Source of the DNA: Callorhinchus milii
Taxonomy: Eukaryota
Length of the DNA stretch: 64,000 nucleotides
Assembly: GCF_018977255.1 (NCBI RefSeq)
Contig: NW_024704742.1
Coordinates: 26,414,001 to 26,478,000, forward strand
Reading direction: 5' to 3'
Of the stretch, positions 8,179-44,400 are shown piece by piece. The position numbers were made by a program, and so were the translations under genes. Each line of letters opens with the position of its first letter. Within the stretch, counting starts at the first letter, position 1. The notes beneath the pieces were generated by a model, which saw nothing but the letters and a program-made list of their open reading frames with translations, was not told the origin of the DNA and did no database searches.

Positions 8179-8184
8179 ACTTAC

Positions 8185-8580: not shown

Positions 8581-8584
8581 CTGC

Positions 8585-17237: not shown

Positions 17238-17340
17238 CAAAAACAGAAGTTGCTGGGAACATTCAGCAGGTCAGGCAGCATCTATGGAGAAAGGAAAGTG
17301 AGTCAACGTTTCGGGTCCACGACCCTTCGTTAGAACTGTA
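17238..17340 (-). mobile_element. Penelope-like element terminal remnant containing a degenerate minimal hammerhead ribozyme motif
   Basis: Minus strand reads AGTT-CTAACGA-A-GGGTC-GTG-GACCC-GAAACGTT-GACT, followed by AGATGCTGCCTGACCTGCTGA. Confidence 0.65.
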
Positions 17341-18653
17341 TCCTACTCTGGCTCTCATTTAATCTCAATTCATTGTCTTGAACTAAAATTGGTGAAGGCG
17401 AGCGAGCGGGACTAAATATAAATGTTATGTCTGGCGGAGGAGGAGGAGGAAAATAATACCATAGAAGCCTCGAAAATATCATATCGTCCACCTGAGTTCT
17501 GAGCGAGAACATTGTAGTTAGTATTAAATATAGTACAATAATTCTGCTGTAACTTAATTGCTCCCTGAAGATTTAAGCCAGTAATTTTACACAATGAAGT
17601 GAAGTTATACCTACTGAGAACAGTGCTACCAATAGCTTCAGAAACCACTTCAGTTTGTGTCAGGAAGCACAAAACACCACCATCTGCTGTTTGATTGAAG
17701 CATATTCAAGCTGAACTGGTGCTCAGCACAACATATTGTAGAAAAAGATAATTGCATCAAGCACTGAGGTCAGTTTTACAGTAGCACATTGAAGGGTGAA
17801 AGCAATAATAAAAGAATCCTTGCATTTCATAGTGTCTGTCTTATTGTGTCAGTCAAACATGTCAAATACATTCACAGGATATACTGTAAAGTGCAGTGAC
17901 TGTGTGCTTTGTGAGCAAATGCAACCAATTTGGAAGGGCAGACCAGTCACTGGGAGCAGGGATTTATCCCACTCAGCTCCTGTTAACCCTGCAAGGCAAC
18001 GGGTAGGATGGTCTGAGCTGGAGGGTCAAACAGTAGAAAAGCTTAGCAAACAACGATATCAATGGCAAGCTATGTGGTTTCAGCTGGTTAGGCTCCAACA
18101 CTACCCCAGCACACTATGTGGCTCCCAAGCCCTAGCTCTTGCCAACCTGCTCGCTGAAATTAGGTAAGCAGAGTGCGCCTACCATTCCAATAAACATCTC
18201 TGGAATTACCATATGTAGGTGGGATGCATGGAATTCTCGGTCTGGTTTGGATACTCTTAAGCACAGTATTGGGATTCCGCATGTGTTAAGACACCTGGCT
18301 AACAAAAAAAATACAGCCATTAAGTGAATGACCAATTACATCTGGTGCAATGCTGACTGTCCCCTGAGAAAATCTTTACAATGGTAAATTCTCGTACCAG
18401 GAGAGATTAAATCTTTCATATCCATGGTATTTCCATTAGGTGCAAGACCATATGGCTATGTTCAGAATATACTCGATAAATTCTCCAGTAAGTTGTCAGA
18501 ACAACGATGATTGAAGCTGAACGCTCAGACAATGGAAATTGAAACAGAATTCCCATGTTAAACCTTAGGTTATATCTAGCAGCTCTGTGCACAGACCTTT
18601 ATAAAGATGCAGTCACAAAGGCGTACTTAACCGTTATTTTTTTCTAAAAAAAG

Positions 18654-20089
18654 TTTATTGTACTTTACCATACTTACAATAAAAATAAATATACAGTACT
18701 TTTTAATCCAACTGTTCAATCAATTGCAGTACTTATACAGAAAACACTTTGTGTTCTTAATCATTTAGTAAACATTGAAAACATCTAACATAACAATTTT
18801 TAGATCTATAAAAAACAAGTCAATTTTAAAATACACATTCTACAATATGGTTTATATATGAAAGTGCAATTAGAAAAATTCCATTGCTATAGCACCAACT
18901 GGAAGTAATAGAGAAGATAAAGCAGTCTGCTGGAAACCTTGCTTTCTGGATTGGCAACAAAAATGCAACGCTCCTCTTAACAGTATGGTAGCTTAGCACA
19001 ATACTTTTTATGAATCACTAGCATTACATTAGAATAATAAGTATGATACAGATGTACGTAACTGGACAAGGCATGTGATGTATAGCAGCAAATAGCGCAA
19101 GTACTGTACAATCGTGAACATCACATTGGCTACAGGTTTAAAAAGCCAGTCACTGTATTCTTATCAAAAATACAGTCAGAGGTTTCCTAATTTTGGGGGA
19201 GGGTTGGGGGAGGCAAACTACAGATCACAATGTGCAGAAAAGCTGCAGACAGAAGCCATGTGCCTTATATGCGTCAAAGTGATTTGTTAATACAGTATAA
19301 CTTTGCAAAAAGAGACAGAGTGCATCATAGCACTGTACTGTAGTAACTGCGTAACATTGGAATAAACATTTAACCCACAAAACAAGTGCTCCCCTCGCTG
19401 GTCTGACACACACGCTCCAGTTTACACTGTGCCGAGGCATCACACAAACATGAAAAATATTTTCTTATCCGATTCTGATTTTTGCTTTGCACCCAAGTCC
19501 AGTCGCTGACACACTTCATTTAATGGGTCACAGAGCACTGAGAAAGAGACGGTCCTAAAATAATTTGGTAATCCTTGAATTTGATATAGTGCCTTATATC
19601 ACGTCTTCAAGACGTCTCAAAGCGCGTCACAGAATAGACTATAAAATGGATTGACTGTATTTTGCGTTTTGCCCACAAAACACACAGTCACTACACTTTA
19701 CAGTATATTGTGTGAAGCGCTTTGAGACATCTCAGACGAGATAAGGGCGCTATATCAAATGCAAGGTTTATTATTATTATTATTTATTTTGTGGGCGAAA
19801 CAAAATATCGAGTGATTTTGCAGAGGTCAGGTACAAACGGCACAACACGGCACAGTGAAACCACACTGAACAGTGGACAGTGCACCCACCTTAGAACAAT
19901 GATTGAAAAAAAACACAGCTATAAATTCACTACATGAACAGATAATAAATGTTGGTATGAAAAGTTCCCAGTGAAGTGAAATTCAACGTTCGCAACATCT
20001 GACCTGGGCTGCTGCTTTACAATCTTTTATCTTCTTCAGGGCCCTCGTTCTTTAACTTCTTCATTCTGTTTCTTGTTTTACCCTACCCC
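18654..20089 (-). other. HMG20-like gene terminal exon (codes GRVKQETE* at 20061-20089 if exon 12 is skipped) and about 1.4 kb 3'UTR ending near AATAAA at 18654-18659
   Basis: Strong acceptor (long T run then acag|GGGGT) at 20090; minus-strand AATAAA at 18654-18659. Confidence 0.6.
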
Positions 20090-23000
20090 CTGTAAAAAAA
20101 AAACACACGCATTTTGAGTTAAATTCTGCTTCTGTCCATCAGTTTCTTTATGCAGGGTGAATCAAAAGTCCTCACTCGTAGGTCAAAATGAGATGTTCAA
20201 ACTGCACCCGATGTAGGCGCCTCGGCTTCCCCAAACTCCTCCCTCCATAGGCTGCAGATCATCCAGAATTCTGCAGCCCGTGTCCTCTCCTGCACCAGGC
20301 TCCGTGACGATCACCCCCATCCCTCGCCCGACTCCTCTGGCTTCCCATCACACAGAAGATATAGTTCAAGATCCTGGTTCTCACTTTCAAAGCCCTCCAT
20401 GGTCTTGCTCCCCCTCTACCTCTGCGACCTCCTAACCCCCTACCAACCTGCCCGCTCCCTCCGCCCAGTGGGCTCCAGCCTGCCTCACGTCCCCTGCCTC
20501 GCCTGCCCCACCATTGGCGGGCGGGCCTTCAGTCAATCTGCCCCCACCCCCAAAAAATCACTTGTAATAAATAACACTGAATGAAAATTTCAATTAAAAA
20601 AAGTAATAATTAAAAAGGTATCAGAGCTCGAAGGTGCAGGAATTGTACCTGGGTGGGAAAGCTACAAGTAAGAACTTGATTCACTATCCACATTGCCCTC
20701 AAGTTGTTCTTTGACAAATCTGTCCTCAATTGCCTGTTTAGAGCAATCATTTCAGTTGCATGGATACAACTGAGGTAAAGAGATTCATAAAAAACTGTAG
20801 CCAAAAAATGCCCCGATACAGGTTATAAAAAAACACTTTTGCATTGAAAACTTCACTCAGCTGGAATTCTAACAAGCTGCCTCTTGACCACTGCATAGCA
20901 ACTGTTGTTAACAACGGAGTAGAAAAAGGACGCTTTATGACATTTTCAACTAAGCAGCTGGTCTGTCTCATTCCATAAGGGCACCGTCGAAGATCCATTT
21001 CTTAAAACAAAGCTGAACTTGTCAGTTCTTCTGGCAAGTATTCAAATCCTACCTCACTCAGTCAGCTCCCAAATCTAAAACTGTCTCTGGGTAACAAAGA
21101 ATCTCTGTGGAACCCTCTTACAATTATGGTACCGTGGGTTCACTTCAGCATAATTGGCATGTCCACCCCAACATTTACATCCCCAAAAAGATCCGAATTG
21201 CCAAGTGCGCAGATTAATCAATTTGATCCCATCGGTATTCTCAGTAGATTTGGGCTGTTTTGGGGCATTTCAACATTGCTAAGTGTCATTAATGTGACGA
21301 TAATCAATTTGATCCCATCGCTTTTCCATTGAACTAAAATTACTTTCTGGAACAGAAGTCCAAACATTCGAAAGCACGCCACAAAGCTTAGCAAACACAC
21401 TTACCTTTACTTAGTGAGTGTATCAAGAGATAGGCACGGTTTCTGCTGAATGCAATTTCCTAGAAGTTATAAAATGAAGATTATTTTAATAATAGGATTG
21501 TTCTGACTGCCTGATCGTCTTAACTTGTGAACTTATGTGCGGGGGGGGGGGGGAAGAAAAGAGAAACCCGACCTAAAAGATTACTTTCTAAAAACATGTT
21601 CCAGAAACACAAGCATTTTATTTTATTGCATCAGCCATAAATCTAAACGCAAGTGCTGCAGAGTGATTTCAGTATCCTTTGTTTCGCCCTTCCCAAAGAA
21701 TTTCCGTAAAAAAAAATAATGCTTGCATTTGATATAGCGCCTTGTCATGTCTTCCAGTTGTCCCAAACCACTTCACAGACTATACTGTAAAGTGAATTGA
21801 CTATATTTTGGGGGCAAAATGCAGCAGCCAATTACGCAAAACAATGTCCTACAAACAGTTGTGAATTGAGTAACCCAAATTTTTTTTGAAGGGATTATTA
21901 CCCCTGGAAAGTGATCTGATAATTGACTAACAACCCGGTTGCTACTTACTGCTGGTAAACAGAGGCGTGTGGAGTACGGAGACTTGCCTAAGATTTCACC
22001 CAGGATTCAAACCCGGGTCCTCATTTAAAAGATATTAACACCTTTTAAATGCCACTGACACTTATCTCTTTGTCTCATTTATGGGGTCAACCTGGCTCAG
22101 TTGGAAACACTTTTGCCCAAGTATGTAGATTGTGAGTTCAAATGTCTTACTAATTCAGTCTTAATTTGAAGATTAATTTTTTGCTTTGTCAAATGAATAC
22201 TGAATATTTTTCCAAAATTCTGCAACATCTTCAGCCCTGGCCGACTATCCCTCAGATAAATTGGTCATTCACTTCAAGGCTGTTTGCAGAACATATCTTG
22301 AGCACAAACTGGCTGCCTCGTTCCCCTACAATTACACACAATGACTTCACTTTACAGCAACAACTTGCATTTATATAGCGTCCTTCAATTACTTGTGAAA
22401 TGCTTTGAGGCATTTCAATATCACTGGAGCTATATCAAATGAAAGTACTATTATTAGAATTACTTTAAGACAATGGTCTTAAGCTTAACATCAGAAATAT
22501 TGGGCCCCAATGTATTACAGCAGACAAAGAGACCATTTGGCTAATCACATCTGTGCTGATGCTCGCTCCCCAACTGGAACCAGCTCTTTGAATTTTGCTT
22601 CCTCCCTTACCTCTTTGAAAGTCTCAGGACCTATCTTTTGGATTCAGTCACCTTTCCCCTCCCACCCCCAGCTTGAGTGCCAAACTAGTTATTGTTAAGA
22701 TCCTAGGGATGTCCTCCCCATGTGCAAGGAGCTATATAAATATAAATTTGCATTGTATTGGATTGTAATTGTAATTCATAGTCTATGCAAACATCAATTA
22801 TAAATGTATTGAGCGTTACATAACATACCACTGTCCATTATTTGGATATGGAATTGAAAGAGCATGGGAACCATTTTTAAACTTTCCAGTTGTGTGTCCA
22901 ATGCGATTCCAGAGGCTTTCAAGTTTGCAAGATCAGCTTCCAGCTTTACCTTCCGATTCTGGGAAAGAAATTACATTGATACTTCTTGCTTAAACAAATT

Positions 23001-26000
23001 GTAAAAGATAAATCCATTAAGTTATTAGAAACCACGGGTTGCAACACGATGCTGGAACCAGTTCGGAAATGCTTTTAAAAAGGCACCCAAATCAATTTTA
23101 ATACAATCAGAGAGATGGATACCCAATTTACGAGAAAGCAAATGCATTTGGTGTGGCATATTTCATGTAACAAGATATCACTGCAGGGTAATACGTGAAC
23201 CCTAATGACTGAAGAGAAGAAATGCCATCTCACCTGGAAGCACTAAAAGCAGAGTTGGCCTCAAAATAGTGTCTCTTTGATGTTATATAAAAATAATAAT
23301 CCTTGCATTTGATATAGTGCCTTGTCATTGAAACATCTTAAAGCACTTCATTGAATTTACTGTAAAGTGAATTGACTGTATATTTTGTGGGCTCTCAACA
23401 AAGTTAACTGCCTGAATATTACTTCAGAATTTCAAACTCACTCACTCCAGCCGTAAGTTTTTAATGTCTCTTTTGAAAAGCACTTAATAATAATATAATA
23501 ATAATCCTTGCATTTTGATATAGTGCTTTTCACATCTTCTTGACGTCTCAAAGCGCTTCACAGAATATGCTGTAAAGTGATTTGACTGGATATTTGTGGG
23601 CGAAATGCGGCAGCCAATTGCGCACAGCAATGTACCACAAACATTCGTGGATTGAAAATGACCAATTTATTATTGTTTTGTAGGAATTATTACTAGGCGT
23701 GTGGAGTAAGGAAACTTGCCCAAGGTTTCGCCCTGCCTGGAATTGAACCCAGGTGTCTCGCTTGCAAGGCGAGTGCTCACTTGCATTGGCGAGAACAACT
23801 GAATGAAGCCTTGGATGCTTTCTTCACAAATAACCCCTTCCACCCAAAGAAAATTGCAGACTGCATCATTAAAGCCAACAGAGTACATTTACCTTCAAAA
23901 CTTCTAATTGTTTGCTTAGATTTTCATGTTCATCTTGTGCACTTTCCAAAGATTTTGTGAGTTCACTAAGTTCAAACTCTCTTACTGCAGGGGGAGTGAG
24001 AGAGAAAAAAAAAAGCTCAATATGCATTTTTTTCTGGTTTTAAACATAATCAATTCTCAGTTAACATCTGTCTGATTCATGTCCCCTGCTCAATCTACCC
24101 CATCAGTCGGTGAGTTTTCAGCCACTCTATCCCCGTTCTCTGCAACACCTCTCCGACCTACTATCCCCCTACCTTCCTGCCCGTACCCTCCGTTCCTCTG
24201 ACTCCAGTCTGCTCCACATCCCCCGCCCCAACCTCCCTACCATCGGTGGCCGGGCCTTCAACCTCTCAGCCCCGAGGCTCTGGAACTCTATCCCCCAGTG
24301 CCTTCGCCGCCTCCTCCCTTTCCTCCTTCAAGGCCGGTCTCAAGACTTTCTCTTTGACTGTGCCTTCAGCTCCCCTCTCGACTCTCTACCCCCTCCTCGC
24401 TCCCTCCCTTCCCTCCCCTCATCCTGACCATTTCCTCCTGCTCGGGTCCTGACCCAACTGTCCAGCGCCTTGGGACGTCCTCCCGACGTGAAAGGCGCTC
24501 TATAAATGGAATTTTGTTATTGTTGTTGCAACTCCATTCTGGAGCATTTCTGCCTTACCACCTCCCTCTCTGGTTTTAAATCCAACCTTAAGAGCACCTT
24601 TTTTCAACTGCAATTCCAGTCACCTTTCCCTCTCCCACATCCCTGCCTCTGTTTAATGTGACTTTATCATCTCCCTTGGCCCCACTATCCAAAACTGTTG
24701 TTCAAATGGCTAAGGTGAAACAACAACAACTTCCATTTATATAGCGTCCTTCAAGTGGGGTAGTATAGCTTGAGACAGAATAAACATAGACTAGAAAGTT
24801 TTAAAAAAAGGATTAAAAGCTAGTTGCTGGAGATGCAAGGATGTTGGTTTTAACTCAATGGGTCTCAGAGATTTGATCCAATAGGAGAGCTCACAACAGA
24901 GTAGAAACAGTTCAACTTAACTGTAACTCTAAGTTGATTGAGAACAAAGTCAAAAAATAATTAAGAGTCGTTGAATGACGTTCATGCTTACATTTGACTT
25001 GTTTGAAAATATATTCCTCCAGAAGGCTGAGGTTGAGTGATGTATGGCTGTGCTTGGAGGTCAGTCCGCATAGCTGAGAGAGCTCGGTTGAGTCTGCATC
25101 CTCTGCTAAATCCTCGTCTCCCAGCTGTTCCTGCTGCTGCTGCTTCGATAGCTCAGCTGCCTCCTTTTTAAACTCTCCTGTTTGAATTCAGAGACACAGC
25201 CATTAACCCCCTCCCGTGGTCAGTGTGGGCTCTGTGCATGCTTCAGGTTATCGCTACCCGATACATTACAGCGAATGTACAAATGTGAAGCTCGAGAGGT
25301 CTGCTAATTTACCCTCATCCGACAAAATCCAATGTGCATTTTACATCCTGAATCCTGAGCCCTCTTAAAGGAGTTGAAATAATAATCCTTGCGTTTGATA
25401 CAGTGCCTCATCACGTCGTTGAGAAGTCTCAAAGCGCTTCAGAGAATATATTGCAAAGTGGATTGACTATGTATTTTGTGGGAGAAAAGCAGCAGCCAAT
25501 TGCGCACAGCAGTGTCCCACAAACAGATGTGGATTGAATTTTTTGGGGGAATCATTACCCCCGGAAAGCGATATGCCAATCGACTAACACCCGAGTTCCT
25601 ATTTATTGCGAGGTAATCAGAGGTGTGTGGAATAAAGAAACTAGCCTCAGCTATTGCCCTGCCCGGGAATTGAACCCGAGTCTTCTTGTTTGCGAGGTGA
25701 GTGCACTAACCACTACATTACGAGACTACAGTAATCCTCTAACTAAACCTCAACAACAGAAAACAATGTGCATTTTACATCCTGAATCCTCAGCCTTCTA
25801 AAAAGCAGGAGTTGAAAAGTAGTCAGAATAAAAATTAAAACAAACAGAGGCAGACATTTCCGCTGCACTGGTTTTGGCAGAAAGAATTGAGCTTGAGGGG
25901 AAGTAAAACTGACAAGTTTGTAGCTACTCCAACAATAAAATAAATTCAGTGCAAGTACTACATGGTACACACCATCCAAAACAAGGCGTGTGTGCTGCAG

Positions 26001-35000: not shown

Positions 35001-38000
35001 TTAAAAAAAATTTGTGCCAATAATAATAATCCTTGCATTTGATATAGTGCCTCATTATGTCGTTGAGACATCTCAAAATGCTTCACAGGATATATTTTTA
35101 AATGGATTGACTGTAATAATGTCAAATAATAACATAAATTAACAAATAAATATTGGCAACTTATGGCAGTGCCAGAGGAAGACAGGAAGAGACCATGGAA
35201 TCTCTCACATACCACCCCGAGGTACAAAAATAACAAAGTCAAAGGAGAACAAGGAGAGGGGTGGGGAGAGTACTGACATGGAGAAGAAATGCAAAGTTCC
35301 TTCTCAGCAAACCAGTTCCACAAGGCCCAGGGCTCGATTGTATCTGGAAACTATTGCACCCTGAAGGCACAAACTGCTGGTACAGCAGTGAAAACAGCTA
35401 CCAAGCCAAGGGCTGTCTGTACTTAACATAACATGTAGGAGCAGGAGTAGGCCATTCGACCCTTCGAGCCTGCCCCGCCATTCAATCATGGCTGATCTTC
35501 TAATCTAACTCCAGCTAACAACTTAACCCTGCCTTATCCCCATATCCCTAAACCACTCCCATTAATATTTTCTGCCCTTTATTATTTTTATTTCCACCCA
35601 TATTGTCTCAACCTCCTGGTCATCGGATTTCAGATCCTTCCTCTCCACTGCTTTTATTTCATCCCTAATTAGCAGGACAACCCCCCCTACCTCATTTCCC
35701 ACAGTGCCTATCTTTCCTGTAAACTGAGAACCCTGGAATATTTAACTCCCACCCTAGATCTCCTTGCAACCATGTTTCAGTGATGGCTACTAGATCGTAC
35801 CCACATGTGTCTATCTGCGCTTTTAATTCATCAGTTTTATTCCAAATGCTTCGCACATTCAGATATAACATTTTTAATTTCCTACCATTTCCTCTACTCT
35901 CTGATTCCTTATCTGCGTTGCTAAGCTTCTTACCCCTAGTTAACCTATTCCTATTATCTGGCAGGCTATTCTGCACTGTCATCTTTACTTTTTCTAATGC
36001 TAACTTATGGTTTCTCTTACCTTTATATTACCCCCCTTTACTAGTGTAATTCCTATTTACCTCCCTATTAATTCGTTTAGCTGGGACATTTGTCCCAGCC
36101 CGATTTAAATGCAGCCCTTTTCTCTGAAAGAGCTTCTGACTTACTGTGTACATTTTTAACAGCAATCCATTATGTTGATGCCCAACCGCAGTACACAGGA
36201 CTTCGACAGCAGAGAGCATCATCTGCCCGGATTAAAAATGGACCAATGACCTGATGAAAATTTGAAAAAACACCGTTTAAACAAACCTCACTCAAAGCGA
36301 AGTTGCATTTCCATAGCTAGTGAGCGAACGCAACTGTTTGGAGCCAGCTGACCCGCACACAAACTGCAGCCTCCAGTATTGTGCTTTGGGGGCCCTGTTG
36401 CTTCTTCATTTAAGTGGGTTCTAGATTACGAGTCTGCAGCAATGCGGAGGCTCTTTGGTTCCTACATAAACAATGTTACAAGAGTGTAGGTTTCCAAGAC
36501 AGTCTTGGCTCATAAAGCAAATTCATAGATATTTTTCAAACAGTGGACATCCAGTCACCAAAATAACAAGTCCATCCTGAATTTTTGCACATCAAAATGA
36601 ATTAGGATACATCCCCCCCTCTTCCTCTCTTATCCACTTTTGCTTTCCTCCTTCCTCCCCCTCATTATCTACAGGGAAAACAGGATCAGGAGAGGGTCAT
36701 TCAACCCACTAAACCTCTTCCACCAGTTTATTAGATTTTGGTAGATCTTTTAATCCCTTTTTGTTTGGTCAGGGACGAATCTGGAAACCCAACACTATGC
36801 TGAAGAGTATCCAAACCAAGCTGAGGTTTATATGACATCCCACCCACACATAGAAATTCCAGAGATAGATTGTTGGAATGGAATTCTTACTCTTTCCCTG
36901 GAGAGACACATCCTGCTTACCTAATTCAGGAGAGTATTAGGCACAGGTTTGCAAGAGCCAAGTCTTGAGGACCCCAGAATGTGCTCTGGGGTACTGCTGC
37001 AGTGTAACCAGCTAAAACCACATAGCTTGCCATTGATATCTCTGTCTGGCAAGCTTTCCTGCTGCTTATCCAGCTAGAAATATCCTCCCTTTATCTTAGA
37101 GTATTAATCCCAAAGCTCTGCCTTTTTGCACACTTAATACCTCTACTACTCAGTGTATGTTGGTGGGATGTGTCTCTTTTAAACTTATGGGCAACATGGA
37201 CAAACTATGTTTTTATTTAAATATTCACTCATCTCTGATTCATGTATTTCGCCCAGAAAATATACAGTCAATTCACTTTACAGTATATTCTGTGAAGCGC
37301 TTTGAGATGTCTCAAATGACATAAGGCGCTATATCAAATGCAAGGATAGTTATTATTATGTAAAATTGAACAAAAAACCTATAGGGTAAACTGTGAAATG
37401 CTTTTTCCCCAATTGGGAATCTGGGTCAATAACTGAGAAGCTACGATATAAACAAAGTGCCCAAATCAAGCCAACTTCAGGCTTCTTAGGCCTCACATGA
37501 CCTTTATAAAGTGATATCAGTGGTGTTTCCTGCACATAGCACAGAAAGTGACATCATCAACATTTCCTGTGTATACTGCTCATGGATACAATACACAGGA
37601 AGTGATGTCAGGAGCCGGTCACTGCCAGAAACCAAGTGTATCTCGCTTGCAGTTAGCAAGGATCCACAGGACACCTGTGCTATAAGCAAGGCTGTGCTAT
37701 AGGTGGAGGGGAGGGAATGCTTAGAACAGGTGTCTACCTGCTTGATTTTGGCCAAAGTTCCTGCTACTTCTCCACATTTCCTTTGAAAGCAGCAGTGAAG
37801 TCCAATTCCACCAATCCTGCCCACGAATACCTTTGGTTCGTCATTCTCCAGATCCTTTGCTCCACCGCTGCCTTCCACTTGTCCGTCCAGAATAACGTTC
37901 TGCAGCCTCTGAGGTCCTGTCTCCAAAGGATGGATCTGAAGCAGGGGAGTGCCTGGCGGAATAGCACTCACTGAACCCCGCTGCAACAAAGGCCGTGGAG

Positions 38001-41000
38001 ACACTGCAAAAACAAGGATAATTCACATGTACCAACAACTAACAGCCCCGTGAGGAGCACTGCAGTGAATGAAGATTAACTTAATAAAACGCATTTAATG
38101 TTCAAAGCAGCCTCCATCCACAATACTAAACACACTGTCACACCACAACAGGATGTAAATTATTCCAGCCCGTATACTAGTATATAATTCAAAGGTTAGC
38201 TCTTATGCTCGTATATAATTCAACGGTCAGTATTGATTGACTTCAAGTTCTCATCCTCACTTATAAATCCCTTCACGCTGAGCACCTCCCTATCTCTGTG
38301 ACCTTCTCCCGCCACACTCCTCTGCTTGTCCCCATCGCCCTGCTAACTCGGGCCTGATGTGTGTTCCCCTACATCACAATCAGTGGCTGAGCCTTCAGTT
38401 ACTACGCCCCGAACCTCAGGAATTCCCTTCATCTCGCCGCCTCTCTATTCGTCTTTAAATCCAATGTAAAAATCTACCTCTTCAACTGCATCTACGGTCA
38501 CCACCCCTTCCTCCCTTGCTTGGAGTCTGACACTGTCCTTGGAAAGCGCTTTGAGACGTTATCCTACTTTTGAATCTAAGGTTTGCAAAGCTTTCCACTC
38601 GGGTGTAGATTAGTCCACACAGAAATCATTGCTATCGACATCTCCATTATTGTAGCATGTGATTACCAAGGTGGTAAAAGACCAACTAGATGGACCTTGG
38701 ACATTTTTTCGTCCAGCAATTCCTATTTCCTATGTATATGGAACTTCTTCTCATCGGTGGAACCATACCCAGAAGCAGGAAAAATATGTCAATGACTTCA
38801 GAAGAGGAGGAAAATTGATAGATTGAAACAAACACTGTTAGCCAAATACTTTGGTGACAAATTAGACTTCAAAGATTATATGAAACCACAGGGCACTCTG
38901 TCAAATTGTAGGCATCATCACAGAAACAGTCGACTTTTGGGAAAATGTTTATACGTTACTTTTATTTATCCCTGCCTTCCATGCCAAGATTAGTCCTGTG
39001 CAATTTGGACATTTAACACGTACAGGCAATACTCACCAACCCTGATATAATGTGCCCTGCTAGAGCATAAGCCCGCTTGGAACTCAAGTGTCCTGTGGAC
39101 CCTCAATTACACTTTGCCCAAAATATACACATAGTTACACCGCTTTAGAGTGTATTCTGTGAAGCACTTTGAGTTAAGGCAGTATATCAAAGGTGGACAG
39201 TCCAAGCTAAAGTTGTAATAATAATGATTATTATTAGACTAAAGCAGAAGATAGCTAAGAAGCAAGCTCTGCTCGTCGCATTAAAACAATGAGTCAAAGT
39301 CGATATCCGTAGATTTTTTTAAAATACATGTCTTTGATTTCGGGCCCGGTCTAGCTAGATTCGAATTCCGGATACCCAGAGTCCAGTAAATAAATGAAAG
39401 CAACCGAAAGCAATAATCCAGACACCCCCAAACCAGCCACCAACAAATTAAACCAAGTCATCTTGGAACAAACATACAAGACCATTACCTGCGGTCTGTA
39501 GTTCCAAATTCACATCCGAATTCAGCTGGCCAACATAAGACAACGTACCTCCATTAGCATCTGTAGTCACACACACTATTCTGGAATAAAAAGAAAATTG
39601 CATTCAGAATAGAATTGTTACATAGCCTGGCTCCTGAGAGAAAAGGGAAAGAACATTTATGTAAATCCTTAGCTATTCACAGAAGAAAGCCAATAAAACA
39701 ACGGATCTTTTATTCCACGCTTCTCATTTACTTATCCAATTAGAATAATAATCCTTTCATTTGATTTAGCGCCTCATCGCGTCGTTGAGACATCTCAAAG
39801 TGTTACACAGGATATACCGTGAAGTGGATTGACTGTGTATTTTGTGGGTGAAACACGTCAGCCAGTTGTACACAGCAATGTCTCATAAACAGCAAAGCAG
39901 TGACCAATTGGGGGGACTGTTGGCCAGGACTCCAGGAGTAACTCCCTTCTCCTTTCAAATAGTGCCATGGGATCTCTAACATCTACCTGAACAAGTAGAT
40001 GGGACCTCACTTTAATGTCCCATCTAGATACAGCAAGCAATGAATGACTGCACCAGCAAGTTAACATCATGGCCTCAAACACGTCAACAAAAACTAGATG
40101 CCTTACCCTTGCACATCACAAATGGATCAACTCCCATTAGTAACTTTCCAATACCATTCATTGTAATTATGTTTCTATTTTGTATATCTGCAGTGCTTTA
40201 ATATCATAACAAGGATTATAACAATATCATAAGAGAACAATACTAATATCACATCCAATTTCTGTAGTATATTGCAGAGATACTTGGCATGTTACTTAAG
40301 GTGGAGGGATTCTAGCCTACCAAATAATCAGAATCAGATGTTATACATCCCAGGGCACTGCCGGAAGTTTGTGAGACAACGAACATCATTGCGAAAGTAT
40401 GGCTGACCATTTGGTGAGATTCGGAAAGAAGCAGCCCAAATCTTTACTTTAGTCTAAGATCAATAAGATTGACAATCCTGAAATTCATTTTAAGTTAGGA
40501 TGTTATCTTAGCATGTGGCACAACACAAAACGCACCCTGGTTACTCATTGTCAGGTGAAATATCCTCCTTCCAAACTTTTAAGGCCATTCTGACAAAGCA
40601 ACACAAATATTAGAATAAAACAAGGCCTTTGTGAAATCTCGATGATATGATAAAGCACTACATCATATGCACTGCATCAAATGCAATCTTATTAGTTAAA
40701 TTAATGAATAGTGATATAAACAACATCAACAAATTGCATTTATATAACGCCTTTCACATGGAGGATGTACCAGGATCTGGACAGTGAAGCGTTTGCACCT
40801 GAGCTGGGAGTTGGAAACAAGAGGGGTGGAGGGCAAAGGGAGTGGGAGTGGGAGGATGAACGAAGGTATGATCAAAGAGGAGGGTCTTGAGATGGGCTAT
40901 GGAGGAGCCAATGGAGTGGGAGAGCCGTAGGGGTTGCGGAGTCTGTCCCCAGAGGATGGGGACAGAGATGCTGAAGGCCAATGGTCGAGTGGGCAGGACG

Positions 41001-43769
41001 GGGGGGGGGCACGAAGCAGGCCAGTGCCTGCCAAGCGGAGGGAGCGGGCGTCACACACCTCACAAGCTGAAACCCTCACCGACGCAATCATTAGCTGCCG
41101 CCATGATTTTTCCAATGCACAATATCTGCCCAGCTCACCGATCCACAAAGTCCAACGAATTCAAAACTTCACCAGCCGTACGTACACTCATCCGCTCTAA
41201 ACTCCGTACCCCCCATCACACCAATTCTCGCTCCCTATCACAGAACGGATCAACTTCAAGATCCTCACACACGTCTACAAACCCCCTCATGCCCTGGCAC
41301 CTCCCTCCCTCTCCGACCTGTTTACTCCCCTAACCCATTACCCGTTGCCCCTGTCCAGCTGGCTCAGGCCACCTGCTTGTCCCTCATCCCCTCCGCTCCA
41401 CCATCGCCGGCTGCGATTTCAGTCGCTGCAGGACTCTCTCCCTCCATCTTGACCCCCTCCTTCCCCTCCGTTAGATCGCGACTGAAGACCTTCCTTTTTC
41501 GACCTCCTCCCTCTCGCCGGCTCGGCGTCAGCATCCACCACCGTTAAACGCTCCGACCCACTGCCCCGCGTGAGGGTTTCATAGAAATAAGCTGTTGCTG
41601 CTGCATTTATTTACACGGTCACCTTCACGCGAAGCTCTGCCCGGAAGCAAATGTCTCGTTAACTTCCCCGGTGAGCAGCGGCGCAGACGCTCTCTGCGCG
41701 GAGGGATCTCACAAACGTTTCACCCACAAATATACGGTCACTACACTGCGAAGCGCTACTCTCGAAGACGTGATGAGGCGCGATGTCAAATGTCAGGTCT
41801 CACCCTCAGGCCACTGTGTGGGGGGGAGGGGGGGGTCTCACCCTCGGGCCACTGTGTGGGGGGGGTCTCACCCTCAGGCCGCTGTGTGGGGGGTCTCACC
41901 CTCAGGCCGCTGTGTGGGGGGAGGGGGGGTCTCACCCTCAGGCCGCTGTGTGGGGGGGAGGGGGGTCTCACCCTCAGGCCGCTGTGTGGGGGGAGGGGGG
42001 TCTCACCCTCAGGCCGCTGTGGGGGGGGTCTCACCCTCAGGCCGCTGTGTGGGGGGGGGGTCTCACCCTCAGGCCGCTGTGGGGGGGGGGGGTCTCACCC
42101 TCAGGCCGCTGTGGGGGGGGGGGGTCTCACCCTCAGGCCGCTGTGGGGGAGGGGGTCTCACCCTCAGGCCGCTGTGGGGGGGGGGGTCTCACCCTCAGGC
42201 CGCTGTGGGGGGGGGTCTCACCCTCAGGCCGCTGTGGGGGGGGGGTCTCACCCTCAGGCCGCTGTGGGGGGGGGGTCTCACCCTCAGGCCGCTGTGTGGG
42301 GGGGAGGGGGGGGGGTCTCACCTCAGGCCGCTGTGGGGGGGAGGGGGGGGGGTCTCACCCTCAGGCGCTGTGTGGGGGGTCTCACCCTCAGGCCGCTGTG
42401 TGGGGGAGGGGGGGGGGTCTCACCCTCAGGCCGCTGTGTGAGGGGGTCTCACCCTCAGGCCGCTGTGTGGGGGGGAGGGGGGGGTCTCACTCTCAGGGCA
42501 CTGTGTGGGGGGGAGGGGGGGGGGTCTCACCCTCAGGCCGCTGTGTGGGGGGGAGGGGGGGTCTCACTCTCAGGGCACTGTGTGGGGGGAGGGGGGGTCT
42601 CACCCTCAGGCCGCTGTGTGGGGGGGTCTCACCCTCAGGCCGCTGTGTGGGGGGGTCTCACCCTCAGGCCGCTGTGTGGGGGGGAGGGGGGGGGTCTCAC
42701 CCTCAGGCCGCTGTGTGGGGGGGGAGGGGGGGCGTCTCACTCTCAGGGCACTGTATGGGGGAGGGGGGGTCTCACCCTCAGGCTGCTGTGTGGGGGGGAG
42801 GGGGGGGGGTCTCACTCTCAGGCCGCTGTGTGGGGGGGAGGGGGGGGGGTCTCACCCTCAGGCCGCTGTGTGGGGGGGGAGGGGGGGGGTCTCACTCTCA
42901 GGGCACTGTATGGGGGGAGGGGGGATCTCACCCTCAGGCCGCTGTGTGAGGGGGTCTCACCCTCAGGCCGCTGTGTGGGGGAGGGGGGGGTCTCACCCTC
43001 AGGCCGCTGTGTGGGGGGGAGGGGGGGGGTCTCACCCTCAGGCCGCTGTGTGGGGGGTCTCACCCTCAGGCCGCTGTGTGGGGGGTCTCACCCTCAGGCC
43101 GCTGTGTGGGGGGAGGGGGGGGGTCTCACTCTCAGGCACTGTGTGGGGGAGGGGGGGGGTCTCACCCTCAGGCCGCTGTGTGGGGGAGGGGGGGGGGTCT
43201 CACTCTCAGGGCACTGTGTGGGGGGAGGGGGGGGGTCTCACCCTCAGGCCGCTGTGTGTGTGTGTGGGGCTGTGGGGGGTCTCGGCCTCACTGTACCTCT
43301 CCTGACCGTCCACATGCTCCAGGGACACGGTCACGGGGACGCACTCAATGAAGGAGCCGCCGCCGCCTCCTCCTCCTCCTCCTCCCGCCGCTGCCGCTGC
43401 TCCTCGGCCGCCGCCGCCCGAGGCCCTCACTGCTGCCCCCGCGGTACCGGCAGCGCCCGGCGCCTCCCTCCCCGGACCCGCGCGGAGCGGGGACAGCGTG
43501 AGCTCAGCGGCCGCCGGTCCGGCCCGACCCCGGGCCCTCAGCGGCTCCCCGGGGCCCCCGGACCCACCCCCGGGGCCCCCGGACCCACCCCCGGGGCCCC
43601 CGGACCCACCCCGGGGCCTCCGGACCCAGACCCGGGGCCTCCGGACCCAGACCCGGGGCCTCCGGACCCAGAGCCCCCGGACCCGCCCCGGACCCACCCC
43701 GGGGCCCCCGGACCCACCCCCGGGGCCCTCGGACCCGCGGCCGCCTCCGCCTCCCGCAGCCGCCGCCAT
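20061..43769 (-). CDS. HMG20-family (HMG20A/HMG20B/BRAF35-like) HMG-box + matrin/U1-type C2H2 zinc finger + coiled-coil protein; complement(join 43297-43769,39489-39580,37831-38003,30342-30421,29580-29703,29100-29226,28234-28292,26955-27063,24992-25177,23893-23984,22829-22958, then 21407-21459 or 20061-20089)
   Basis: Eleven consecutive GT-AG exons join in phase (2,1,0,2,0,1,0,1,1,0,1) with no internal stop. The HMG20 signature is present: [67 protein letters not shown]. Confidence 0.88.
21405..21459 (-). CDS. HMG20-like gene exon 12 (candidate cassette exon with stop at 21407-21409)
   Basis: ttctag|GAAAT...TAAAG|gtaagt; [17 protein letters not shown]. Confidence 0.65.
21716..22021 (-). mobile_element. 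Older SINE subfamily copy
   Basis: Reverse-complement similarity to 13587-13943. Confidence 0.8.
22829..22958 (-). CDS. HMG20-like gene exon 11 (coiled coil)
   Basis: tttcccag|AATCGG...AGTG|gtatgt; [43 protein letters not shown]. Confidence 0.88.
23485..23780 (-). mobile_element. Same SINE family, 5'-truncated or diverged
   Basis: Tail and body similarity. Confidence 0.85.
23893..23984 (-). CDS. HMG20-like gene exon 10 (coiled coil)
   Basis: ccctgcag|TAAGA...GAAG|gtaaat; [31 protein letters not shown]. Confidence 0.9.
24992..25177 (-). CDS. HMG20-like gene exon 9
   Basis: aaacag|GAGAG...AAAT|gtaagc; [19 protein letters not shown]...[15 protein letters not shown]. Confidence 0.88.
25378..25730 (-). 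mobile_element. Older SINE subfamily copy
   Basis: Reverse-complement similarity to 13587-13943. Confidence 0.85.
26133..26454 (-). mobile_element. Same SINE family, full length, inserted into the head of a DeuSINE-type element
   Basis: Reverse-complement copy; the host element resumes after about 26460. Confidence 0.92.
26955..27063 (-). CDS. HMG20-like gene exon 8 (matrin/U1-type C2H2 zinc finger)
   Basis: aagcag|GATGAT...ACCG|gtaaag; [36 protein letters not shown] = C-x2-C-x12-H-x5-H. Confidence 0.92.
28234..28292 (-). CDS. HMG20-like gene exon 7 (acidic linker)
   Basis: atcag|GTGTG...GAT|gtgagt; [20 protein letters not shown]. Confidence 0.85.
28519..28805. mobile_element. Tigger/pogo-type MITE
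   Basis: Imperfect TIRs CAGTAGGAACCAGTTAC / GTAACAGGGTTCTACTG, with TA on the left side. Confidence 0.55.
29100..29226 (-). CDS. HMG20-like gene exon 6 (HMG box helix 3)
   Basis: [42 protein letters not shown]; donor GTG|gtaagc. Confidence 0.95.
29580..29703 (-). CDS. HMG20-like gene exon 5 (HMG box)
   Basis: [41 protein letters not shown]; donor CAG|gtgaga. Confidence 0.95.
30342..30421 (-). CDS. HMG20-like gene exon 4 (basic NLS-like segment and start of HMG box)
   Basis: ctcag|AAACGA...CAGG|gtaagg; [27 protein letters not shown]. Confidence 0.93.
35560..36135 (-). mobile_element. CR1-clade LINE fragment: end of ORF1 (esterase-like GLHLN) and start of ORF2 AP-endonuclease
   Basis: [36 protein letters not shown] motif in ORF 35692-35982; KGLHLNRAG just upstream. 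Confidence 0.85.
37831..38003 (-). CDS. HMG20-like gene exon 3
   Basis: tttttgcag|TGTCT...CCAAAG|gtattc; [10 protein letters not shown]...KDLENDEPK. Confidence 0.8.
39489..39580 (-). CDS. HMG20-like gene exon 2
   Basis: tttttattccag|AATAG...GCAG|gtaatg; [30 protein letters not shown]. Confidence 0.8.
41796..43290 (+). repeat. G-rich minisatellite, core GGTCTCACCCTCAGGCCGCTGTGTG plus variable G tract, about 40 copies, in intron 1 of the HMG20-like gene
   Basis: Seen directly. Confidence 0.97.
43297..43769 (-). CDS. HMG20-like gene exon 1 (Gly/Ala/Pro-rich N-terminus)
   Basis: ATG at 43769 in a CpG-rich island; [10 protein letters not shown]...[19 protein letters not shown]; the phase-2 donor GAG|GTACAG fits exon 2. 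The internal 21-bp repeat may hide indels. Confidence 0.7.
43545..43736 (+). repeat. 21-bp GC-rich coding tandem repeat (GGSGGPG-like) inside exon 1 of the HMG20-like gene
   Basis: CCCCGGGGCCCCCGGACCCA-type units seen directly. Confidence 0.9.
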
Positions 43770-43830
43770 CTGCACCGCCTCCGAGATCTCAGCCGCAACA
43801 CATCGCGAGATTCCACACCGGAAACCCCCC
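43760..43830 (-). promoter_or_regulatory. Housekeeping-type CpG promoter motifs of the HMG20-like gene: YY1-like AGATGGCGGC over the ATG, CGCG/BANP-like TCTCGCGATG (43801-43810), ETS-core CCGGAA
   Basis: Motifs read directly from the sequence; function inferred from known vertebrate CpG-island promoter grammar. Confidence 0.5.
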
Positions 43831-44400
43831 CCTCCCGGGGGGAGAGAGGGAGAGATTCCACACCGGAAACCCCCCCCTCCCGGGGGGAGAGAGGGAGAGA
43901 TTCCACACCGGAAACCCCCCCCCGGGGGAGAGAGGGAGAGATTCCACACCGGAAACCCCCCCCGGGGGGAGAGAGGGAGAGATTCCAGACCAGGACCCCC
44001 CGGGGAGAGAGAGGGAGAGATTCCAGACCAGGACCCCCGGGGGGAGAGGGAGAGATTCCAGACCAGGACCCCCCGGGGGGGAGAGAGGGAGAGATTCCCG
44101 ACCAGGACCCCCGGGGGGAGAGAGGGAGAGATTCCAGACCAGGACCCCCCGGGGGGAGAGAGGGAGAGATTCCAGACCAGGACCCCCGGCGGGAGAGAGG
44201 GAGAGATTCCCGACCAGGACCCGGGGGGAGAGAGGGAGAGATTCCAGACCAGGACCCCCGGCGGGAGAGAGGGAGAGATTCCCGACCAGGACCCGGGGGG
44301 AGAGAGGGAGAGATTCCAGACCAGGACCCCCGGGGGGAGAGAGGGAGAGATTCCAGACCAGGACCCCCGGGGGGGAAACAGCGAGCGATAGATTCCACAC
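43806..44400 (+). repeat. Promoter minisatellite of about 40-47 bp (GGGGAGAGAGGGAGAGATTCC...CCCC)
   Basis: Seen directly; proximal units contain ACCGGAAAC and distal units GACCAGGAC. Confidence 0.95.

What the first reader, a model, noticed from the sequence alone, without database searches (positions are those of the whole stretch)
20061..43769. HMG20-family paralog with an extra matrin/U1-type zinc finger
Seen in sequence: a 12-13 exon gene, largely invisible to the ORF track, that splices in frame. It encodes a Gly-rich N-terminus, a possibly folded segment ([26 protein letters not shown]), an HMG20-type HMG box, an acidic linker, a C-x2-C-x12-H-x5-H finger and a coiled coil ([17 protein letters not shown] resembles HMG20 IFTEEFL..KAREAEL). 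Established: HMG20A (iBRAF) and HMG20B (BRAF35) act with LSD1-CoREST-HDAC complexes through HMG box plus coiled coil and have no zinc finger; matrin/U1/JAZ-type fingers often bind RNA or dsRNA. I know of no such gene between JAKMIP1 and WFS1 in human. Inference: a third, probably ancient and uncharacterised HMG20 subfamily that could couple RNA binding to a CoREST-type chromatin complex.
Basis: partly seen in the sequence, partly recalled or inferred. Interest (0 to 1): 0.8.

Follow-up and report, generated by a model that had tools for sequence, protein, structure and literature searches.

The report
Ancient HMG20-like gene with zinc finger
This is a real, spliced gene for a DNA-bending chromatin protein related to HMG20A and HMG20B that also carries a very highly conserved RNA-type zinc finger; its family runs from sponges to mammals but I found no study of it.

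Summary
On the minus strand, 12 coding exons (43769 to 21407, all GT-AG) give a 565-aa protein. It is 407/408 identical to a Callorhinchus milii database model over the part that model covers. A 1337-nt contig from a public run joins the exons, including the zinc-finger exon. Skipping that exon would shift the frame.

The protein has a basic [13 protein letters not shown] motif, an HMG20-type HMG box, a C-x2-C-x12-H-x5-H U1/matrin/JAZ-class finger and a coiled coil homologous to that of HMG20A/B.

It belongs to a pan-metazoan family (sponge, Trichoplax, cnidarians, molluscs, insects, echinoderms, amphioxus, fishes, turtles, many mammals). This family sits beside canonical, finger-less HMG20 in at least 17 species, Nematostella included. 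The family forms one clade (92/99). Placing the window protein with HMG20A or with HMG20B is rejected (AU p 6e-7 and 0.0017). The finger is the best-conserved segment (24-31 of 33 residues, sponge to ray).

Databases label members 'HMG20A-like', 'SMARCE1-related' or 'uncharacterized'. Seven literature searches found no description.

Function is inferred only: a chromatin adaptor whose coil may dock LSD1-CoREST-type partners and whose finger may bind double-stranded nucleic acid. Loss in human was not testable here. JAKMIP1 is not in the window; WFS1 is.

The parts
43297..43769 (-). Coding exon 1. It runs from the ATG at 43769 through a Gly/Arg/Pro-rich low-complexity N-terminus and ends in the conserved motif [19 protein letters not shown](R). 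Residues about 12-74 lie in a 21-bp tandem repeat (43547-43736).
   Evidence: GT donor after 43297 and open joined frame. The ray orthologue P0006 aligns to 43571-43296. The motif is conserved in jawed vertebrates and hemichordates. Tandem repeat.
39489..39580 (-). Coding exon 2 ([30 protein letters not shown]), the second half of the conserved N-terminal motif.
   Evidence: AlphaFold2 gives two short strands here, but at pLDDT about 50 or lower.
37831..38003 (-). Coding exon 3, a poorly conserved linker ending in an acidic ..DLENDEPK.
   Evidence: tblastn gives 100% identity to P0003. Contig X4 record 25 covers 37831-38003.
30342..30421 (-). Coding exon 4: the basic [13 protein letters not shown] motif and the start of the HMG box.
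   Evidence: K97, G101, W102, P103, K104, G105, K107, R108 and K109 are invariant in 22 family members.
29580..29703 (-). Coding exon 5: HMG box helices 1-2.
   Evidence: Pfam HMG_box E 1.9e-13. Contig X4 record 25 covers 29580-29700.
29100..29226 (-). Coding exon 6: HMG box helix 3 and the [15 protein letters not shown] extension.
   Evidence: Contig X4 record 25 covers 29098-29226. pLDDT is above 90 over residues 123-206 of P0003.
28234..28292 (-). Coding exon 7: acidic linker ([19 protein letters not shown]).
26955..27063 (-). Coding exon 8: the U1/matrin/JAZ-class zinc finger [31 protein letters not shown] (C-x2-C-x12-H-x5-H). An alternative NAGNAG acceptor at 27066 adds one Gln.
   Evidence: Pfam zf-met scores 21.1 bits against a cut-off of 21.2. 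The closest solved fingers are dsRBP-ZFa 1zu1 (E 6.2e-4) and ZMAT5 8r7n (E 0.011). The Cys and His ligands are invariant in 22 of 22 sequences. In contig X4 record 25 the exon lies directly next to exon 9. Skipping it shifts the frame. The Gln variant is seen in P0001.
24992..25177 (-). Coding exon 9: acidic region and the start of the coiled coil (..[16 protein letters not shown]). It carries the polymorphic site 25110 (Asp/Glu).
   Evidence: hhalign matches it to the canonical HMG20 'FDIPIFTEEFL..' stretch. The A>C variant at 25110 is seen in runs X1, X2 and X4.
23893..23984 (-). Coding exon 10: coiled coil ([31 protein letters not shown]).
   Evidence: It is part of a single long helix at pLDDT 84-97.
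22829..22958 (-). Coding exon 11: the end of the coiled coil and the conserved [10 protein letters not shown] tail.
   Evidence: Contig X4 record 25 covers 22828-22958. The MVP.LF tail is present in 54 of 120 listed relatives and in 0 of 120 canonical HMG20.
21407..21459 (-). Coding exon 12 with the TAA stop codon. The 3' UTR follows, but its end was not determined.
   Evidence: No poly(A) signal before 19788.

Best explanation
The locus is the chimaera orthologue (Callorhinchus milii or a very close relative) of an ancient, pan-metazoan sister family of HMG20A/HMG20B. It is an expressed gene.

The protein has five recognisable parts:
- a short conserved N-terminal motif;
- the basic [13 protein letters not shown] stretch;
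- an HMG20-type HMG box;
- an almost invariant U1/matrin/JAZ-class C2H2 finger, on its own obligatory exon;
- a coiled coil homologous to that of HMG20A/B, ending in a conserved LKMVP.LF tail.

Shown: gene structure, splicing, domain content, family membership and family age.

Inferred (my odds about 0.4): it acts as a chromatin adaptor. The HMG box would bind and bend DNA without sequence preference. The coiled coil would dock a partner in the way HMG20B's coil docks LSD1 and HMG20A's docks PHF14. The finger would add a contact with double-stranded nucleic acid (dsRNA or an RNA:DNA duplex) that canonical HMG20 lacks.
For: - Gene model: 12 GT-AG exons with an open 565-codon frame. From RIVCVTTD to the end it is 407/408 identical to P0003.
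- Transcript: in run X4, one 1337-nt contig (depth 64) lies in six pieces on exons 11, 9, 8, 6, 5 and 3. Exon 8 sits directly next to exon 9 in the record (positions 299-483, then 484-592).
- Exon 8 is obligatory: leaving it out gives a stop after 23 codons.
- Domains: HMG_box E 1.9e-13 and zf-met 21.1 bits. AlphaFold2 gives the HMG box at pLDDT above 90, a beta-beta-alpha finger at 78-84, and a helix 312-398 at 84-97. The best solved relative of the box is the HMG20B HMG domain 2crj (E 4.6e-41; Foldseek rank 1 at 63% identity). The best solved fingers are dsRNA-binding ZFa, ZMAT5 and U1C.
- Family breadth: all 96 candidates in the finger-exon search scored E <= 0.01, and 95 of them carry C-x2-C-x12-H-x5-H.
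- Family separation: 116 of 120 listed relatives of P0003 carry the finger and 0 carry P[IV]F[TS]EEF. Of 120 listed relatives of a canonical crinoid HMG20, 0 carry the finger and 113 carry that motif.
- Coexistence: both kinds occur in the same species in at least 17 cases, for example Nematostella, Lottia, Lingula, Saccoglossus, Anneissia, Callorhinchus and Choloepus.
- Tree: the finger family plus canonical HMG20 separate from other HMG boxes at 98/97, and the finger family is one clade at 92/99 with a species-like inner order. AU tests reject the window protein with HMG20A (p 6.2e-7) and with HMG20B (p 0.00165); a single canonical clade is not rejected (p 0.41).
- Coil homology: hhalign of the whole profiles gives E 9e-66 over 235 columns, skipping the finger. 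The C-terminal parts alone give probability 98.6 and E 6.2e-16 over 93 columns.
- Constraint: the finger keeps 24-31 of 33 residues from sponge to ray. The HMG region keeps 57-98 of 112 and the coil 22-65 of 88.
- Partner analogy: HMG20B binds LSD1 through its coiled coil (PMC7613766, passages read). [quoted passage not shown]
Against: - No binding of any kind was measured or supported here. The roles of the finger and the coil are argued by homology alone.
- zf-met falls 0.1 bit below Pfam's cut-off on the exon alone. It is below cut-off or absent in whole-protein scans of four relatives.
- The family lacks two nearly invariant canonical HMG20 features, the P[IV]F[TS]EEF motif and the C-terminal PLPG..PT..TID.YM..L region. 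Its partners may therefore differ.
- The runs that hold the spliced contig are only guessed to be RNA.
- The N-terminus is uncertain because exon 1 contains a tandem repeat and has no cover at the ATG.
- A shrew orthologue has lost two finger ligands (named). No primate, murid, bird, squamate or amphibian member appeared among the rows listed. This hints that the gene is dispensable in some lineages, but the lists were cut at 120 of 182.
Confidence: 0.6

Rival explanations
1. The gene and family are as described, but the protein works outside LSD1-CoREST-type complexes and the finger is not an RNA binder. The invariant finger would be a protein-contact or DNA-contact module. The coil and the LKMVP.LF tail would recruit a different, still unknown partner.
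For: The family lacks the canonical P[IV]F[TS]EEF motif (0 of 120) and the canonical C-terminal region. It has its own tail (MVP.LF in 54 of 120 against 0 of 120) and its own N-terminal motif. The two families have coexisted since before the cnidarian-bilaterian split, which usually goes with divided functions. U1-like fingers in the PDB list also sit in protein-rich assemblies such as SF3a/Prp9, ZNF622 on the 60S subunit and U1C.
Against: The coil is clearly homologous to the HMG20 coil that binds LSD1 and PHF14. The nearest solved finger is a dsRNA binder. Nothing here tests either view.
Confidence: 0.32
2. It is just HMG20A or HMG20B, or a recent lineage-specific duplicate of one of them, that picked up a finger exon in cartilaginous fishes.
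For: Database names such as 'HMG20A-like' and 'SMARCE1-related' suggest this. In the HMG-box tree, canonical HMG20 is an unresolved comb rather than a clean sister clade.
Against: C. milii has its own HMG20A (P0333). AU tests reject grouping the window protein with HMG20A (p 6.2e-7) or with HMG20B (p 0.00165). Finger-bearing orthologues exist in a sponge, Trichoplax, cnidarians, protostomes and deuterostomes.
Confidence: 0.01
3. It is a gene-prediction artefact or a decaying pseudogene: chance open frames strung together, or a dead copy.
For: Exon 1 is GC-rich, repetitive and absent from the database models. No run is on record as RNA.
Against: There are twelve canonical introns and no stop in 565 codons. 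A contig joins the exons. Sequence is strongly conserved across roughly the whole animal kingdom, most strongly in the finger.
Confidence: 0.02

Closest known systems
HMG20B (BRAF35; 'SMARCE1-related')
   Same: It shares the basic GWPKGKKRK motif directly before the box. Its HMG domain is the closest solved relative (2crj: E 4.6e-41; 63% identity, Foldseek rank 1). It shares a collinear, homologous coiled coil. That coil is the part of HMG20B that binds LSD1 (PMC7613766).
   Different: HMG20B has no zinc finger (0 of 120 canonical relatives). It has the P[IV]F[TS]EEF motif and the C-terminal PLPG..TID.YM..L region, which this family lacks. Grouping the window protein with HMG20B is rejected (p 0.00165).
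HMG20A (iBRAF)
   Same: It has the same box-plus-coil architecture. C. milii has its own HMG20A (P0333), which aligns over the box and coil. HMG20A's box and coil contact PHF14 (bioRxiv 10.1101/2021.10.12.462922).
   Different: HMG20A has no finger. Its basic motif differs (GGW[ST]KGRKRK in tetrapod and teleost sequences). Grouping with the window protein is rejected (p 6.2e-7).
SMARCE1 / BAF57
   Same: It also has an HMG box followed by a long helix.
   Different: It is a much more distant box (6lth_Q E 1.5e-16, against 4.6e-41 for HMG20B). It has no finger. It was not included in the tree because no SMARCE1 sequence was in hand.
U1-like / matrin-type / JAZ-type C2H2 fingers (dsRBP-ZFa, ZNF346/JAZ, ZMAT5, U1C, Prp9)
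   Same: They share the C-x2-C-x12-H-x5-H spacing with an aromatic residue after the second Cys and a G.QH motif at the second His. The best matches are ZFa 1zu1 (E 6.2e-4), ZMAT5 8r7n (E 0.011) and U1C 3cw1 (E 0.22). The Pfam families matched are zf-met, zf-C2H2_jaz and zf-U1. One pangolin family member is even named 'Zinc finger protein 346' in its record.
   Different: Here a single finger is embedded between an HMG box and a coiled coil in a chromatin-type protein. RNA binding has not been tested, and the Pfam score is just under the cut-off.

Membership tests
HMG20 family in the broad sense (HMG20A/B and kin) | HMG box that groups with HMG20 boxes rather than with other HMG boxes | tested here: met
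   The finger family plus canonical HMG20 separate from 6 other HMG boxes at 98/97. The best PDB match is the HMG20B box 2crj.
HMG20 family in the broad sense (HMG20A/B and kin) | Basic G-W-[PST]-K-G-[KR]-K-R-K motif directly upstream of the box | tested here: met
   The motif is invariant in 22 of 22 finger-family members. It is present in the canonical rows of the alignment.
HMG20 family in the broad sense (HMG20A/B and kin) | C-terminal coiled coil homologous to that of HMG20A/B | tested here: met
   hhalign of the C-terminal parts alone gives probability 98.6 and E 6.2e-16 over 93 columns. The whole profiles are collinear.
Canonical HMG20 (the HMG20A/HMG20B orthogroup) | P[IV]F[TS]EEF motif before the coil | tested here: not met
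   The motif occurs in 0 of 120 listed relatives of P0003 and in 113 of 120 listed canonical proteins.
Canonical HMG20 (the HMG20A/HMG20B orthogroup) | Conserved C-terminal region (PLPG..E.PT..TID.YM..L) after the coil | tested here: not met
   This region is nearly invariant in canonical HMG20. The hhalign match ends at template column 321 of 368, and the window protein stops about 15 residues after the coil.
Canonical HMG20 (the HMG20A/HMG20B orthogroup) | Nests within the HMG20A or the HMG20B clade | tested here: not met
   AU p is 6.2e-7 with HMG20A and 0.00165 with HMG20B.
Canonical HMG20 (the HMG20A/HMG20B orthogroup) | Subunit of LSD1-CoREST or PHF14 complexes | not testable with these tools
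   No LSD1, RCOR or PHF14 sequence could be brought into the complex predictor. A Nematostella Lsd1 pull-down contains an 'NvHMG20' (UniProt A7S5L8), but I could not tell which paralogue that is.
U1-like / matrin-type zinc finger (Pfam zf-met, zf-C2H2_jaz, zf-U1) | C-x2-C-x12-H-x5/6-H ligand spacing | tested here: met
   The window sequence shows it directly. The ligands are invariant in 22 of 22 sequences, and the motif is present in 116 of 120 listed relatives.
U1-like / matrin-type zinc finger (Pfam zf-met, zf-C2H2_jaz, zf-U1) | Score at or above Pfam's gathering cut-off | tested here: inconclusive
   zf-met scores 21.1 against 21.2 bits, zf-C2H2_jaz 16.3 against 22.6 and zf-U1 15.1 against 22. 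PDB sequence matches to ZFa, ZMAT5 and U1C support the class.
U1-like / matrin-type zinc finger (Pfam zf-met, zf-C2H2_jaz, zf-U1) | Beta-beta-alpha zinc-finger fold | tested here: met
   The AlphaFold2 model has two short strands followed by helix 245-252, at pLDDT 78-84. This is a prediction only.
U1-like / matrin-type zinc finger (Pfam zf-met, zf-C2H2_jaz, zf-U1) | Binds dsRNA or an RNA duplex | not testable with these tools
   This needs a binding assay.

The most novel reading that the evidence does not exclude
The finger-bearing protein is an alternative HMG20-type subunit of the LSD1-CoREST (or PHF14) machinery that senses nucleic acid. It would be present in the first animals, possibly as the ancestral form from which finger-less HMG20 arose, and would tie the demethylase complex to double-stranded RNA or R-loop-like structures. 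It would have gone unnoticed because the standard models (human and mouse, and probably chicken, frog and zebrafish) have lost it. The 'NvHMG20' recovered with Nematostella Lsd1 could be this paralogue.
Probability: 0.2. Interest if true: 0.75.

Novelty: new variant of a known kind. Interest (0 to 1): 0.5.

Why it matters
HMG20A and HMG20B are treated as the only members of their family in work on LSD1-CoREST, PHF14, neuronal gene control and leukaemia.

This locus shows a third lineage, at least as old as the cnidarian-bilaterian ancestor. It occurs in many mammals, including cattle, pig, seals, whales, bats, sloths and some rodents. Its most constrained part is an RNA-type zinc finger that the studied members lack.

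If it shares their partners, it offers a direct route to ask whether RNA or hybrid structures steer this demethylase/deacetylase machinery. If it does not, it is a deeply conserved chromatin protein with no known role.

It also matters for annotation. The family currently carries at least six unrelated names, among them HMG20A-like, SMARCE1-related, TOX3-like, SSRP1-like, ZNF346 and formin-like 3. It is also fused to WFS1 or JAKMIP1 in some gene models.

Tried and rejected
- Complex prediction: two copies of residues 300-415 of P0003 scored 0.19 against a mark of 0.32. The verdict was 'no answer', so it counts neither for nor against dimerisation.
- The look-up of sequencing runs: no RNA holder is listed on record, and runs X1-X6 are only guessed to be RNA. 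The exon-exon joints were not among the 15 joints shown in table 5 (1237 more were not shown). The splice evidence therefore rests on the pieces of one contig in table 8. The unlisted stretches of that record (92, 58 and 83 nt) have about the lengths of exons 10, 7 and 4, but they were not shown.
- JAKMIP1: no coding-looking frame lies in 1-20000. The JAKMIP1-like C-terminal part of the sturgeon fused model P0440 finds nothing in the window. Pfam finds no JAKMIP domain in P0440; its name, and my recall of the JAKMIP1 N-terminus, are the only basis for calling it a fusion.
- Which Nematostella paralogue was pulled down with Lsd1: the supplement gives only 'A7S5L8, predicted protein (fragment), v1g105457'. 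The look-up of P0415 and P0132 gave other accessions, so this stays unresolved.
- The search of earlier findings by sequence, by words and by place gave nothing relevant.
- Literature searches that found no description of the family: 'HMG20A-like'; HMG20A + HMG20B + zinc finger + paralog (9 papers, none on a third member among the 6 listed); HMG20 + matrin-type; 'HMG20C'; 'protein 20A-like', TRIADDRAFT_58720, LOC100373324 and 'HMG20-like'; WFS1 + JAKMIP1 + HMG20. HMG20 + Nematostella gave the CoREST paper only. bioRxiv supplements and subscription journals were not searchable.
- Loss in human, mouse, birds, squamates, amphibians and most teleosts is suggested only by their absence from truncated hit lists. 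Salmonid fragments do exist. I do not claim loss.
- Whole-model Foldseek returned only HMG boxes and adds nothing on the finger or the coil.
Full report
**The observation**

Stop-to-stop frames on the minus strand between 44 kb and 21 kb contain a string of short open pieces with recognisable content. I fixed their borders by canonical splice signals and by tblastn of two database proteins.

The result is 12 coding exons: 43769-43297, 39580-39489, 38003-37831, 30421-30342, 29703-29580, 29226-29100, 28292-28234, 27063-26955, 25177-24992, 23984-23893, 22958-22829 and 21459-21407. All eleven introns are GT-AG, and the joined frame is open for 565 codons up to a TAA.

From RIVCVTTD to the end, 407 of 408 residues equal P0003, a UniProt model of Callorhinchus milii. 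The window is therefore from that species or a very close relative. The one difference (Asp/Glu, base 25110) is also seen as a variant in three public runs.

The database model lacks exon 1.

Two points remain unsettled:
- The start. The ATG at 43769 is the only in-frame ATG in exon 1. However, residues about 12-74 are encoded by a 21-bp tandem repeat, the frame stays open upstream, and no contig seen here reaches it.
- The 3' end. There is no poly(A) signal between the stop codon and 19788.

**Transcription and the finger exon**

Twelve runs were listed for the last exon and its flank. None is on record as RNA; six are guessed to be RNA. I laid four of them on 20100-39650.

In run X4 a single 1337-nt contig (depth 64) lies in six pieces: 22828-22958, 24992-25176, 26954-27062, 29098-29226, 29580-29700 and 37831-38003 (table 8). 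These are exons 11, 9, 8, 6, 5 and 3, within one or two bases. In the record, the exon 8 piece (484-592) follows the exon 9 piece (299-483) without a gap.

A contig that skips introns at these borders is a spliced form.

Independently, exon 8 is 109 nt long. Leaving it out shifts the frame and gives a stop after 23 codons, so it cannot be a dispensable cassette. An alternative acceptor three bases upstream adds one Gln, as in RefSeq model P0001.

**Domains**

- Pfam finds HMG_box (E 1.9e-13) on exon 5. On exon 8 it finds zf-met at 21.1 bits against a cut-off of 21.2, with weaker zf-C2H2_jaz and zf-U1 matches.
- Against solved structures, the finger's best matches are the dsRNA-binding protein ZFa (1zu1, E 6.2e-4), ZMAT5 (8r7n, E 0.011) and U1C (3cw1, E 0.22).
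- A family profile hits the HMG domain of HMG20B (2crj) at 4.6e-41, HMGB1 at 7.9e-27 and SMARCE1 at 1.5e-16.
- An AlphaFold2 model built on a 22-sequence alignment gives a confident HMG box (pLDDT above 90), a beta-beta-alpha finger (78-84) and one long helix at 312-398 (84-97). The N-terminal 94 residues are mostly at low confidence.
- Foldseek returns only HMG boxes, with 2crj first.

**The family**

A search with the finger exon found 96 proteins; all 96 candidates scored E <= 0.01, and 95 have the C-x2-C-x12-H-x5-H pattern. A search with P0003 found 182, of which 120 were listed.

The records name a very wide range of animals:
- a sponge (Corticium), Trichoplax, Nematostella and corals;
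- molluscs, Lingula, termites, cockroaches and a stick insect;
- crinoids, a brittle star, hemichordates, amphioxus and hagfishes;
- many sharks and rays, Polypterus, sturgeons, gar, bowfin, elopomorph and osteoglossomorph teleosts, salmonid fragments and coelacanth;
- turtles;
- many mammals: ruminants, pig, whales, carnivores, bats, pangolin, horse fragments, shrew, sloth, anteater, colugo and four rodent genera.

The names given by the sources are inconsistent. They include HMG20A-like, SMARCE1-related, TOX3-like, SSRP1-like, ZNF346, formin-like 3, L-Myc-like and uncharacterized.

In an alignment of 22 members, the four zinc ligands and nine further finger residues are invariant, as is the basic GWPKG.KRK motif. 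Invertebrate members end in an almost identical LKMVPTLFGVINF. The finger is the most conserved segment: 24-31 of 33 residues are identical to the chimaera protein in the 14 members compared, from sponge to ray. The box region keeps 57-98 of 112 and the coil 22-65 of 88.

**Relation to HMG20A/B**

An exhaustive phmmer search gave 123 representatives below 1e-30. Cluster look-ups identified finger-less hits as HMG20A (frog), HMG20B and a crinoid 'HMG20A-like'. My recalled assignment of the A and B sequences was the wrong way round and was corrected from these names.

A search with the crinoid protein found 775 canonical relatives, of which 120 were listed. The two sets separate cleanly:
- Of those 120 canonical relatives, 0 carry the finger and 113 carry P[IV]F[TS]EEF.
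- Of the 120 listed relatives of P0003, 116 carry the finger and 0 carry that motif.

Both kinds are named from the same species in at least 17 cases: Callorhinchus, Amblyraja, Heterodontus, Rhincodon, Albula goreensis, Choloepus, Tamandua, Saccoglossus, Ptychodera, Anneissia, Antedon, Amphiura, Lingula, Lottia, Patella, Solemya and Nematostella. The split therefore predates the cnidarian-bilaterian ancestor.

I built a maximum-likelihood tree (LG+C20, 1000 ultrafast bootstraps) on 108 columns covering the basic motif and the box. It had 23 finger-bearing rows, 22 canonical rows and 6 boxes cut from other HMG proteins. The rows were my choice for taxon spread, out of more than 180 and 775 clusters.
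- It separates the two HMG20-like sets from the others at 98/97.
- It makes the finger family one clade at 92/99, with a species-like inner order.
- It leaves canonical HMG20 as an unresolved comb. The bootstrap had not fully settled.

AU tests reject the window protein with HMG20A (p 6.2e-7) and with HMG20B (p 0.00165). A single canonical clade is not rejected (p 0.41); I named that grouping after seeing the tree.

Profile-profile alignment of the two families is collinear over 235 columns (E 9e-66). It passes over the finger region as an insertion. The parts after the finger and after the box, taken alone, still match at probability 98.6 and E 6.2e-16 over 93 columns.

The finger family lacks the canonical C-terminal PLPG..TID.YM..L region.

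**Neighbours**

Wolframin domains lie on the plus strand at 57086-62995, so WFS1 is head-to-head with this gene. A deer gene model fuses the two (P0050). A sturgeon model named JAKMIP1 fuses this gene to a JAKMIP1-like coiled coil; calling that part JAKMIP1 rests on the record's name and on my recall.

JAKMIP1 itself was not found in the window. The human locus could not be examined.

**How it probably works**

Shown: the architecture and its conservation.

Established for relatives:
- HMG20B needs its coiled coil, not its box, to bind LSD1 (PMC7613766, passages).
- PHF14 cross-links to the box and coil of HMG20A (bioRxiv 10.1101/2021.10.12.462922, passage).
- A Nematostella Lsd1 pull-down holds CoREST, HDAC1/2, a PHF21A-like protein and an 'NvHMG20' (PMC9400249: passages, supplementary file 1 and rows of file 5).

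Inferred:
- The box tethers the protein to DNA.
- The coil docks a partner of the LSD1/PHF14 kind, or canonical HMG20.
- The finger contacts double-stranded nucleic acid.

I put this at about 0.4. The main rival, at about 0.3, is a different partner set with a finger that is not an RNA binder. I could not tell which Nematostella paralogue A7S5L8 is; that look-up is the cheapest decisive step.

**Novelty**

The gene is already predicted in public databases, so the locus itself is not new. Seven searches of the held literature found no paper that describes a finger-bearing HMG20 paralogue. Subscription journals and bioRxiv supplements were outside reach.

I rate it a new variant of a known kind, of moderate interest. 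It would rise if the protein proves to be an Lsd1-CoREST subunit, or if its loss in human and mouse is confirmed.

Noticed in passing
window 57086-62995 (+): WFS1 (wolframin) exons with Sel1-like repeat, EF-hand, Cys-rich and OB-fold domains lie head-to-head with the HMG gene, about 13 kb from its ATG. The GC-rich interval between them (about 42-50 kb, GC up to 0.75) may hold a shared CpG-island promoter.
   Followed up: partly
window 41796-43258, 43807-44374, 45720-47209, 47654-48693: Large GC-rich minisatellites. One has a 36-40 bp unit repeated about 40 times in intron 1. One has a 37 bp unit repeated about 14 times just upstream of the ATG. One has a 32 bp unit repeated about 49 times. There is also a CT-rich array. 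They create long spurious open frames on both strands.
   Followed up: partly
window 43547-43736 (-): A 21-bp tandem repeat (about 9 copies) lies inside the coding part of exon 1 and encodes the PRVWVRR / GGSGGPG repeats. This part of the N-terminus is not conserved in the ray orthologue.
   Followed up: partly
window 5291-9279: A roughly 4-kb block of simple and minisatellite repeats gives 200-565-codon open frames on both strands (CVWCGV.., HTHTHT.., AQPSTAQ..). I saw no sign of a gene.
   Followed up: no
window 25968-26619, 23360-24011, 37052-37703 and others: Interspersed repeats in the introns, with SINE-like recurring translated motifs such as [21 protein letters not shown], draw enormous contig depth in all four runs laid (up to about 450,000). 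They also cause most of the false 'joints'.
   Followed up: no
window 35695-36027 (-): An open frame in intron 3 resembles the endonuclease part of a LINE-type retrotransposon (..[35 protein letters not shown]..). The resemblance is from recall and was not searched.
   Followed up: no
window 25110: An A>C difference in contigs of runs X1, X2 and X4 changes Asp to Glu in exon 9. It equals the single difference from the database protein P0003, so it is probably a polymorphism.
   Followed up: yes
P0153 (Sorex araneus orthologue): The shrew family member has lost two zinc ligands (His to Tyr and His to Leu in ..CRTCSWALSSPHSKKEYLLGRQLRL..) while keeping the box and coil. This may be relaxed constraint or decay in that lineage.
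   Followed up: no
P0050 (Cervus) and P0440 (Acipenser): These gene models fuse this gene to WFS1 and to a JAKMIP1-like protein respectively. They are useful as synteny hints but are annotation errors. The deer fusion implies the same strand as WFS1, unlike the head-to-head layout here.
   Followed up: partly
window 34982 and 51312: There are two single N bases in the window. The first lies in intron 3.
   Followed up: no
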